Origin: Sphaerodactylus townsendi
Taxonomy: Eukaryota
Length of the DNA: 64,000 nucleotides
Direction: 5' to 3'
Assembly: GCF_021028975.2 (NCBI RefSeq)
Contig: NC_059436.1
Coordinates: forward strand, 31,372,001-31,436,000
Within the stretch, counting starts at the first letter, position 1; every line of letters starts with the position of its first letter. A program made the translations under genes and the position numbers. The notes under the pieces were generated by a model. The model was not told the DNA's origin, made no database searches, and worked only from the letters and a program-made list of their open reading frames with translations. This document shows, piece by piece, positions 4,332 to 6,236 of the stretch.

Positions 4332-6236
4332 TAGGGTTGCCAGCCCCAGGTTGGGAAATTCTTGCAAACTTTGTGAGTGGAATCTGAGGAGGGTGGATTT
4401 AGTGAGGGGATGGACTTCAATTCGGTATGACACCCTACAGTCCACTTCCAAAGTGGCCATTTTCTCCAGGCGAATTGATCTCTGTCGCCTGAACATCAGT
4501 TGTAATTGTGCAAAATCTCCAGCCGCCACCTGGAGGTTGATGAAAACAAAGTAAATGCACTACACACAGCTAAGCAGTGATAGCTGGATAAGTTAGGAAT
4601 ATTTACAAGGTGAAAACCCTTTGAAAAGTATTCAGAGCAAGATCCAGCAATTCTTAGGTGTCCATCTGTTTACAGACATACACTCAAAAGCTCCATCGCA
4701 CCAACAGTGCTTCACAGTAATAGCACCCTTCAAAAATCAGTTTAAAGAACTCAGAAGAACATGAACATTCCTCACTAAGGATTGTTTTCTCTTTACAGGT
4801 AAAAGCACCCACTAAACATTGCCGGTGTTCGGATATAGTCTGACTTCATACAAGACTTCAAGGTCAAGTGGTATCGGTTTAAAAAAAATGGAACAAATAG
4901 ATTGTTTTAATTATTATTGTTTTATTTTAAACAATTTTTATCAAATAAAAATGGAACAAGGGATCGTGCTGCCTTGTGCAAATTACCAACAAAACACCTA
5001 CAGAAAGCAACTCACATCGCATTGTCCAAAATCTATGTCAGCTCTAGCAAGACAGTTGTTTCACCATTGGAACAGACTCAGTCCAAATAACTGCTGGTGT
5101 GAGTGGGCTGTCAGAGAAACGTCCACAAACCTTTCCACCCCCACCCCACCCTGCTTTCCAAGGTCCACAAGCCTTGGAAAGTAGGGTGTGGGCATGATTT
5201 TGTTTGTGGGAGGGATCGTGCTGCCTTTTCCCCCACCCTGATTTTTAAGGCCCACAAGCCTTGGAAAGTGGGGCGGGGGCATGATCCTGCTTGCAGGAGG
5301 GAGCACACTCCCTCCCACCATCAAGATCATACTGCCTTCTCCCCCTCACCCTGTCTCTGCTGTCCAAGTCTGAAAAGACTGGGACAGTAGAGTTGTGGGG
5401 GGCAATCTTCCATGCCGGGCAATTTAGCCCGACATAGAGGATTGCTTTCTCTCTCTCCCCCGCTTGCGCTGTCTAAAAGCCGATAAAGCTGAAACCGATA
5501 AGGGTTTCTTCGAGTGTTTCGGGTGATTCGGATTTACCGAATCACCAAGCCTAGTAGCGAACAGTTTTCTTGTTCATTTGTACAATGGCCGTCCCTGCCT
5601 GCAAGGATTATAAAATACTAAACTGAAGGAGAGCAGCATTGTGAGTTCCTCTAGCAGACTGCCCTCGCCAGCACAGCTATTTGGGCTGAGTCCGTTTCAA
5701 TGGCGGAACAACTCTTTTATTCGCGCTGACATAGATTTTGGACATTAATGCGACGTGAGTTGCTTTCTGTAAGTGTTCTAGTTGGCAGTTTGCACAAGGG
5801 GTATGAGAATCTTATTTGTTTCATTTGTTACCGATACCACTTGCCCTTGAATGAAGTCAGACTATATTTGGAAAGCGACGAGGTTTAGTGGGTGTTCTTA
5901 TCTGCAAAGGGAAAACAATCCTTAATGAGGAATTTTCATGTTCTTCCGTGTACTGAGTTCTTTAAACCGATTGTTTGAAAGGGTGTTATCGTTCTGCAGC
6001 ACTGTCAGTGTGCTTGAGCTTTTGCGCGTACGTTTGTAAATAGACTGACACCTCAGAAGTGCTGGATCTTGCTCTGAATGCTTTTCAAAGGTGTTTTGCC
6101 TTGTAAATATTCCTAACCTACCCAGTTATTGCTGCTTAGCTGTGTGTAGTGCGTTTACTTTGTTTTTATTTATGTTGCATTAACCCCACTCGCTTATTAT
6201 TTATGATGGGAAACCACCTGGAGGTTGGCAGCCTTC
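4332..6236 (+). mobile_element. TAGGGTTGCC-type non-autonomous DNA element, interrupted by a 1.67-kb insertion (4540-6213)
   Basis: Starts tagggttgccag and runs to ccacctggaggttg (4526-4539). It resumes at ccacctggaggttggcagcctt (6214-6235). An uninterrupted relative lies at 34695-34916. Confidence 0.75.
4540..6169. repeat. Long imperfect inverted repeat (arms ~4540-5128 and ~5639-6169)
   Basis: For example, atgaaaacaaagtaaatgcactacacacagctaagcag versus ctgcttagctgtgtgtagtgcgtttactttgtttttat. Collinear over ~550 bp, roughly 80% identical by eye. Confidence 0.95.

What the first reader, a model, noticed from the sequence alone, without database searches (positions are those of the whole stretch)
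4526..6227. 1.67-kb foldback insertion with ~550-bp inverted arms and a perfect 14-bp target-site duplication
Seen: a MITE is split at ccacctggaggttg, which is duplicated exactly (4526-4539 and 6214-6227). Between the copies lie two long inverted arms (~4540-5128 and ~5639-6169, about 80% identical by eye) around a ~500-bp spacer. The left arm starts immediately at the TSD, but the right arm stops ~44 bp short, so these are not symmetric TIRs. There is no ORF and no poly-A. Known: a 14-bp TSD does not fit hAT (8), Harbinger (3) or Tc1 (2), and is more like target-primed or repair-mediated insertion. Inference: either an undescribed foldback-type element or a captured genomic segment with inverted duplication. 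If transcribed it would form a very long dsRNA hairpin (endo-siRNA or ADAR substrate).
Basis: partly seen in the sequence, partly recalled or inferred. Interest (0 to 1): 0.7.

Follow-up and report, generated by a model that had tools for sequence, protein, structure and literature searches.

The report
Penelope-type retrotransposon foldback, nested fragment
This 1.7-kb mirror repeat is real and is an old, cut-down copy of a Penelope-like jumping gene in the head-to-head form already described for that class, with half of an unrelated small DNA transposon in its middle that likely jumped in later and was partly deleted; it is likely an inert relic.

Summary
The structure is real: exact 14-bp duplication, arms 84% identical, right arm followed by 44 extra bases; contigs of related organisms tile both junctions. 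It is not a new foldback element. The arm is an interspersed repeat (137 candidates). Longer copies carry, just upstream, a decayed reading frame for reverse transcriptase, a CxxCxxC linker and a GIY-YIG endonuclease: a Neptune-type Penelope-like element (PLE). Family copies end at two sharp points about 40 bases apart (the PLE 'tail'), 32 of 69 loci hold an inverted piece, and 10 of 69 have 12-17-base duplications. All 11 loci with both outer ends intact have one tailed and one tail-less arm, as here. This layout is published for PLEs, and this scan has reported it before on other DNA of this genome. Only the spacer is particular: the right part of a hAT-like miniature transposon plus 38 unassigned bases, the one case among those 11 loci. 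Later insertion plus deletion (about 0.6) is favoured over capture during retrotransposition (about 0.35). The site lies about 25 kb past the last coding exon of GFRA2; nothing shows transcription or function.

The parts
4332..4539 (+). Host miniature DNA-transposon copy (begins TAGGGTTGCCA), left part, interrupted near its end; older than the insert
   Evidence: profile 1-207; very high summed contig depth; other copies run on through the same 14-mer; median 27% mismatch to 5 other copies
4526..4539 (+). Target-site duplication, left copy (14 bp, exact)
4540..5123 (-). Inverted, tail-less copy of the PLE 3' non-coding end (inverted pseudo-LTR); outer end exactly at the family's first 3' end point, inner end at profile position 58, where many copies begin
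4905..4975 (+). About 60-70-base patch inside the left arm, absent from other copies: local 16-base duplication plus an exact 17-base copy of spacer 5211-5227; likely later templated repair
5130..5553 (+). Right part (profile about 300-734 of 734) of an unrelated non-autonomous DNA transposon with TAGGCTTG-type ends and 8-base duplications (hAT-like); left part and left duplication missing
5554..5591 (+). 38-base linker of uncertain origin; weak likeness to the PLE ORF end or to the inside of the arm; 5562-5687 is deleted in some contigs of organism A
5592..6169 (+). Direct, 5'-truncated PLE copy: non-coding 3' end (pseudo-LTR); in longer copies it follows the RT/GIY-YIG ORF
6170..6213 (+). 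PLE 'tail': optional 3' extension, present on 26-31 of 50 mapped family ends
6214..6227 (+). Target-site duplication, right copy
6228..6235 (+). Last bases of the interrupted host miniature element

Best explanation
The insert is a 5'-truncated copy of an endonuclease-bearing, Neptune-type Penelope-like retrotransposon, with an inverted second copy of its 3' end, and it was likely made in one target-primed insertion and is likely inert now. Shown: both arms belong to a repeat family whose longer copies carry an RT, CxxCxxC-linker, GIY-YIG frame; one arm ends at the family's short end and the other at the tailed end; a 14-base duplication encloses both. Inferred: the element's GIY-YIG enzyme nicked the two strands 14 bases apart inside an older miniature transposon, and reverse transcription started from both nicks at the two start points of the RNA about 40 bases apart (two such start points were shown in vitro for the anole Poseidon element, PMC11167929; priming from both strands is inference), giving two 5'-truncated copies joined head to head. 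Inferred, less sure (about 0.6): a hAT-like miniature transposon later landed at or near the junction, and a deletion removed its left part with the centre of the palindrome. The arms then drifted to 16% apart.
For: Family: 137 candidates, 40 scored, on 15 large contigs. ORF: copies L024, L042, L043/L053, L047/L052 share upstream sequence; the L052 copy matches full-length 650-819-aa proteins from N-terminal part through RT to EN (tblastn E to 7e-31); of 12 long relatives scanned, 9 hit Pfam RVT_1 and 7 GIY-YIG at E<=0.01; they come from a gecko, a lizard, a newt, axolotl and a frog (5 of 6 looked up were named). CxxCxxC linker in P0001. Two sharp 3' ends: 19 tail-less, 26 tailed, 5 uncertain of 50. 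Pieces on both strands at 22 of 51 and 10 of 18 held-out loci. Duplications of 12-17 bases (<=1 mismatch) at 8 of 51 (window included) and 2 of 18 loci against 0 of 400 mismatched flank pairs; exact 14, 14 and 13 at L063, L158, L025. The arms share 27 non-consensus variants (0.40 of the smaller count; 2144 different-locus pairs: median 0.13, 95th percentile 0.33). For the nested spacer: spacer and arm families are equally diverged (median 19.4% and 20.0%); no other locus joins this miniature element to the PLE (0 of 50 and 0 of 18); a 126-base deletion at 5562-5687 is seen in contigs of organism A, so the centre does erode.
Against: An exact 14-mer beside arms 16% apart has about 8% chance, though other loci show the same. 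No hammerhead ribozyme was found, which canonical PLE pseudo-LTRs usually carry (Rfam: none in the window stretch at E<=10, none in 20 loci at E<=1; core-motif scan). Pfam on the family's own decayed fragments was weak (GIY-YIG E 0.078, no RVT_1), so the RT call rests on relatives. One other locus (L010) is closer to the left arm (14.4%) than the right arm is (16.2%), so shared variants partly reflect subfamily. For the spacer: the left arm's inner end (58) lies in the cluster of natural 5' ends (15 of 73 at 40-59), which a random deletion would rarely hit; the linker's likeness to the ORF end is not significant (81 of 1000 shuffles; 77 of 1000).
Confidence: 0.93

Rival explanations
1. Same PLE insertion, but the spacer (half miniature element plus 38 bases) was captured at insertion: the RT jumped to another RNA, or a donor copy was transcribed with its 5' flank, so host DNA was carried between the inverted pseudo-LTRs. 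This changes only the spacer step of the best explanation.
For: The left arm ends where family copies naturally begin; the miniature element lacks its left half and left duplication; the linker is not clearly PLE; unrelated DNA between solo pseudo-LTRs inside a duplication is reported in a rotifer (PMC3846280).
Against: No donor: none of 19 of 19 candidates for 5440-5680 spans the linker; the spacer family is not older than the PLE family; the linker scores above most shuffles against PLE sequence (2-14 of 500 against arm or consensus, several comparisons, post hoc); none of the other 10 complete inverted loci holds foreign DNA.
Confidence: 0.35
2. Two independent insertions of the same PLE family in opposite orientation, the 14-base repeat being chance or belonging to one of them.
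For: The arms are about as far apart (16%) as the closest unrelated copies (14-17%).
Against: One duplication encloses both arms and restores the host element; tail-less and tailed ends face outward as at 10 other loci; shared variants highest for this pair; the family has only some hundred copies in 1.8 Gb, so two within 500 bases by chance is very unlikely (inference).
Confidence: 0.03
3. A mobile foldback family of its own (the whole 1.67 kb moves as a unit) or a repair-made inverted duplication of unique DNA.
For: Long inverted arms inside a perfect duplication.
Against: No second locus holds arms and spacer together (40 of 137 candidates scored); arms are PLE 3' ends; the asymmetry is the family's tail.
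Confidence: 0.02
4. An exapted hairpin: the relic is transcribed and kept as an siRNA or ADAR substrate.
For: Predicted long duplex, -669 kcal/mol for 4700-6010, no shuffle control at this length; uninterrupted runs of 48, 32, 24 and 22 pairs when G-U is allowed on the + transcript.
Against: It lies about 25 kb beyond the last coding exon of GFRA2 and no flanking exon was found (short exons could be missed); the longest perfect run is 21; differences to organism D are about 2% in arms, spacer and flank alike (low power); part of the right arm is deleted in some contigs of organism A; most same-locus arm pairs elsewhere are as similar (13-28%).
Confidence: 0.04

Closest known systems
Endonuclease-bearing Penelope-like elements with inverted pseudo-LTR, tail and duplication (Adineta vaga Pen2a/Pen2; PMC3846280, passages read)
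   Same: Inverted pseudo-LTR completes the insert; 30-40-base tail on one arm; enclosing duplication; 5' truncation.
   Different: Duplication 14 here (12-17 in this family) against 8-10 there; no ORF left in this copy; a foreign fragment between the arms.
Neptune clade of PLEs (diagnostics as given in PMC8557442, passages read)
   Same: RT, then CX2-5CxxC linker, then C-terminal GIY-YIG with CCHH residues in family copies; relatives in squamates and amphibians.
   Different: No hammerhead found; no tree against named Neptune, Nematis or Poseidon references was possible; no Repbase/Dfam name could be checked.
PAc / Poseidon of Anolis carolinensis (PMC11167929, parts 1-2 of 4 read)
   Same: Two 3' ends about 40 bases apart that define a tail; shown there to be two reverse-transcription start sites.
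   Different: Different clade (no linker zinc finger in Poseidon per PMC8557442), carries a hammerhead, prefers AT-rich cuts; the target here is GC-rich.
hAT-like miniature transposons (spacer and host elements)
   Same: Short terminal repeats and 8-base duplications at full-length spacer-family copies.
   Different: No transposase was linked; superfamily rests on duplication length and recalled hAT traits.
Foldback (FB/Galileo/MuDR-like) DNA elements (recalled)
   Same: Long inverted arms around a spacer.
   Different: Their arms reach both ends symmetrically and belong to a DNA transposon; here the arms are retroelement 3' ends with an asymmetric tail.

Membership tests
EN+ Penelope-like element | Single ORF with RT and C-terminal GIY-YIG endonuclease (in the family, not in this copy) | tested here: met
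   L052 copy matches full-length RT+GIY-YIG proteins along their length; YIDD-like and DKG-like motifs in decayed form; own fragments weak in Pfam
EN+ Penelope-like element | Frequent 5' truncation with inverted 5'-truncated partner | tested here: met
   22 of 51 and 10 of 18 loci with pieces on both strands, some of them simple 5' inversions
EN+ Penelope-like element | Optional 30-40-base tail, often on one end only | tested here: met
   Two sharp ends; 11 of 11 complete inverted loci have one tailed arm
EN+ Penelope-like element | Target-site duplication of variable length | tested here: met
   12-17 bases at 10 of 69 loci, 0 of 400 controls
EN+ Penelope-like element | Partial-tandem 5' pseudo-LTR ahead of a full ORF | tested here: inconclusive
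   Not found upstream of the one near-full copy, L052, whose 5' side is filled with other repeats
EN+ Penelope-like element | Hammerhead ribozyme motif in the pseudo-LTR (typical, absent in Naiad/Chlamys) | tested here: inconclusive
   None found, but copies are 12% from consensus and minimal motifs can escape Rfam models
Neptune clade | CX2-5CxxC linker between RT and EN | tested here: met
   CxxCxxC in P0001, aligned to the same motif in P0006; shared with Nematis per PMC8557442
Neptune clade | RT phylogeny with named Neptune elements | not testable with these tools
   No named reference set on hand
Foldback / TIR DNA transposon | Symmetric terminal inverted repeats and further copies of the whole unit | tested here: not met
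   44-base asymmetry; no second unit among scored loci
DIRS-type retrotransposon | No target duplication; tyrosine recombinase | tested here: not met
   Exact duplication; family ORF ends in GIY-YIG; DIRS traits as in PMC8969392
hAT-like miniature transposon (spacer) | Short terminal repeats and 8-base duplication | tested here: met
   Both ends found in 9 of 17 copies; 7-8 of 8 matching flank bases in 6 of them, read by eye
hAT-like miniature transposon (spacer) | Partner hAT transposase with the same ends | not tested
   No search made

The most novel reading that the evidence does not exclude
A vertebrate Neptune element carried 460 bases of unrelated host DNA between its inverted pseudo-LTRs in one insertion (capture by template jump or flank transduction), and the family re-used one site of a common miniature element as a target hot spot (the window copy and 3-4 of 66 other mapped ends). 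That would show in a reptile the host-DNA mobilisation reported for rotifer PLEs.
Probability: 0.3. Interest if true: 0.4.

Novelty: new member of a known kind. Interest (0 to 1): 0.15.

Why it matters
Little beyond repeat annotation: it explains a striking foldback as an ordinary PLE insertion and gives clean end, tail and duplication statistics for an old Neptune-type family in a gecko-like genome (two 3' ends about 40 bases apart, duplications of 12-17 bases), which extends the two-start-site signature shown for Poseidon to a second clade. It would matter more if the spacer proved to be captured at insertion, or if the shared target site proved to be a true hot spot.

Tried and rejected
Rfam: only sub-threshold microRNA-hairpin matches, no hammerhead. 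Pfam on the family's own open fragments: 9 fragments, best GIY-YIG E 0.078; P0001 no relevant hit; word-based protein search with an RT fragment found nothing among 42 candidates. Donor search for the spacer-linker-arm junction: none. Age test of spacer against arms: the first attempt (median 28% from consensus) was spoiled by mixed subfamilies and misalignment; the pairwise test (16 of 25 spacer loci had 150 aligned bases, 50 of 50 arm loci) showed no difference, so age does not decide. A target motif ACCTG(G/A) noticed after the fact in 9 of 50 ends failed in held-out loci, 0 of 18: rejected as a general preference. Shared arm variants are a mix of A>G, T>C and C>T, no sign of editing in the template. 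Expression: no RNA holder listed; this says nothing either way. No empty site among the four labelled organisms laid, which are only about 2% apart; joints that skip the insert had sides of 19-21 bases and fit other host-element copies. Host gene: 55 of 83 long stop-to-stop frames were scanned, one real hit (GFRA2 exon). Literature: 4 searches; no listed title or abstract start describes this family, a miniature-element target preference or vertebrate PLE capture, but only six papers were opened, no supplements, and Repbase/Dfam are not searchable here, so the family may already be named there.

Full report
Observation. The 14-base direct repeat at 4526-4539 and 6214-6227 is exact. The arms align as 4540-4903 with 5808-6169 (80%) and 4972-5093 with 5674-5799 (83%); globally 430 of 511 aligned columns are identical, with 89 gap columns. 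The right arm's pairing ends at 6169. Removing the insert and one repeat copy restores a common miniature element that begins TAGGGTTGCCA. Overlapping contigs of public runs tile the insert: X1 and X4 throughout, X6, X7 and X8 across the left-arm/spacer junction and from the spacer end to the right flank. No contig spans the whole, and X1 may be the sample the window came from, but organisms B and D are separate labels with 1-2% differences. The structure is real.

What the arms are. A search of the own genome with the insert gave 137 candidates, 40 scored, matching the arms at 70-83%. None of the scored loci matched the spacer. Copies that reach further upstream share sequence with each other and read as a decayed frame ending in a GIY-YIG-like domain, preceded by CxxCxxC. 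The longest copy (L052) matches full-length proteins of 650-819 aa from the N-terminal region through RT and thumb to the endonuclease (5 proteins tested, E to 7e-31). Of 12 long relatives from the search, 9 hit Pfam RVT_1 and 7 GIY-YIG; two hit nothing and one is a chimera with LTR-element domains. Five of six looked up are named from a gecko, a lizard, a newt, axolotl and a frog. The genome holds 1195 candidates for related frames, 150 scored; one open 390-aa frame hits GIY-YIG at E 4e-4. Pfam on the family's own broken pieces was weak. RT with a C-terminal GIY-YIG defines endonuclease-bearing PLEs, and the linker motif marks Neptune and Nematis (PMC8557442, passages). Neptune is the likely clade for a vertebrate (Neptune and Poseidon were the PLE groups found in vertebrates in bioRxiv 10.64898/2026.07.22.740005, passages); no tree with named references could be built.

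The odd ends are family traits. With a profile of the non-coding end (657 positions) on 51 loci, window included, 3' ends pile up at 600-619 (20 of 73) and 640-659 (29 of 73). At base level one end falls right after GTTTTCAT and the other 38-44 bases later: 19 tail-less, 26 tailed, 5 uncertain of 50 mapped. The window's left arm stops at the first point and its right arm at the second. Pieces on both strands occur at 22 of 51 loci and 10 of 18 held-out loci; some are plain 5' inversions. Eleven loci keep both outer ends (L056, L058, L063, L150, L153, L156, L158, L170, L181, L204, window); each has one tailed and one tail-less arm, and 7 have a duplication of 13-17 bases (two of these lengths include bases shared with the element's end). 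Over all loci, duplications of 12 or more with at most one mismatch occur at 8 of 51 and 2 of 18, against 0 of 400 mismatched flank pairs. L063 and L158 have exact 14-mers, so an exact repeat beside old arms is not special; its chance here is about 8%. The same layout, inverted pseudo-LTR, 31-base tail on one arm and a duplication, is called the typical Penelope structure in PMC3846280 (passages), drawn as the general PLE arrangement in PMC8557442 and listed as a curation cue in PMC8969392 (passages). PMC11167929 (parts 1-2 of 4) shows in vitro that the tail lies between two reverse-transcription start sites and that the enzyme cuts and extends both strands.

One event, not two. Both arms are 13.6-13.7% from the family consensus (median 12.5% of 65 pieces) and 16.2% from each other. 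They share 27 non-consensus variants, a share of 0.40, the highest for either arm; different-locus pairs give a median of 0.13 and a 95th percentile of 0.33, other same-locus pairs 0.17-0.59. Subfamily structure adds to this, since L010 is closer to the left arm than the right arm is. The enclosing duplication and the family geometry carry most of the weight.

The spacer. 5130-5553 is the right part of a second repeat family (49 candidates, 40 scored). Full copies are 460-1270 bases, begin TAGGCTTG-like, end as at 5553 and have 8-base duplications (both ends seen in 9 of 17), which fits hAT (recalled). The window copy starts near profile position 300 of 734. 5554-5591 is unassigned: against the ORF end of 8 long copies 81 of 1000 shuffles score as high, against the inside of the arm 2-14 of 500, in several comparisons made after the fact. 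Among the 11 complete loci only this one has foreign DNA between the arms; L063 has its own ORF there and the rest abut (L170 carries a gap inside one arm that was not examined). No other PLE locus held the spacer family (0 of 50, 0 of 18), and no donor was found (19 of 19 candidates). The two families are equally diverged (medians 19.4% and 20.0%), the host element more (27%). Contigs of organism A show a 126-base deletion at 5562-5687: a joint in X1 and X3 with half depth on the undeleted contig, and no cover there in X2, so the centre of the foldback does erode. These points favour a later insertion and deletion (about 0.6). Against it, the left arm ends at profile position 58, inside the cluster of natural 5' ends (15 of 73 at 40-59), and capture between pseudo-LTRs is reported in a rotifer; capture keeps about 0.35.

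Function. The longest perfect run is 21 pairs; with G-U, 48 and 32 on the + strand. GFRA2 lies on the - strand with six exons from beyond the window's end down to 31201, so the insert is about 25 kb past its last coding exon; no other exon was found, but short ones would be missed. Differences to organism D are about 2% in arms, spacer and flank alike. Nothing here indicates function.

A side lead. Four other loci have a 3' end beside the same 14-base site of the host element family: L050 (split element with a duplication at the same point), L138 and L010 (one junction each) and, less clearly, L157. With 20 such sites in 134 kb, about 0.25 of 66 ends would be expected within 12 bases (Poisson 1e-4 for 4), but all four are from the first set; the held-out set gave 0 of 18 and the broader motif failed there. 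It is a lead, not a result.

Earlier notes of this scan on other DNA of this genome reach the same kind of reading for other PLE families; none covers this place or sequence. I had this reading before opening them and did not check them.

Verdict. A real structure, a new member of a known kind: an old Neptune-type PLE insertion with inverted pseudo-LTR, tail and duplication (0.93), holding a fragment of a miniature DNA transposon of uncertain arrival. Interest 0.15.

Noticed in passing
L050 (about 480-495 and 1660-1680), L138:1976-2059, L010:1874-2073, L157:2563-2580: Other family copies end at the same 14-base site of the same host miniature element as the window copy; L050 splits it with a duplication. 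3-4 of 66 ends against about 0.25 expected, but 0 of 18 in held-out loci.
   Followed up: partly
window 5562-5687: A 126-base deletion (three bases in its place) in contigs of organism A: half depth in X1/X3, no cover in X2; likely a segregating allele that trims the linker and the start of the right arm.
   Followed up: partly
window 4905-4975: Patch in the left arm with a 16-base local duplication and an exact 17-base copy of spacer 5211-5227; other spacer-family copies differ there by 2-3 bases, so it was likely copied in cis during repair.
   Followed up: partly
family profile positions 39-58 (L010, L015, L020, L025, L058, L065-L067, L069, L150, L156 and others): 5' ends cluster at one point, and many of these copies lack about 80 bases inside: possibly a short non-autonomous subfamily or a preferred stop for reverse transcription; no hammerhead found there.
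   Followed up: no
L159, L160, L071, L184, L200: Some copies show a non-overlapping 5' inversion, like LINE twin priming, beside the overlapping inverted form.
   Followed up: no
window 31201-51704 and beyond 64000: GFRA2 exons on the - strand: aa 260-464 inside the window, aa 146-262 about 16 kb past its end.
   Followed up: yes
L052 (G000:C8:23722500-23732400): A near-full-length but broken copy of this family, interrupted by at least two later insertions and many stops and frameshifts.
   Followed up: partly
G000: 1195 candidate loci for related Neptune-type frames, several with open frames of 350-600 aa: younger related families exist in this genome.
   Followed up: no
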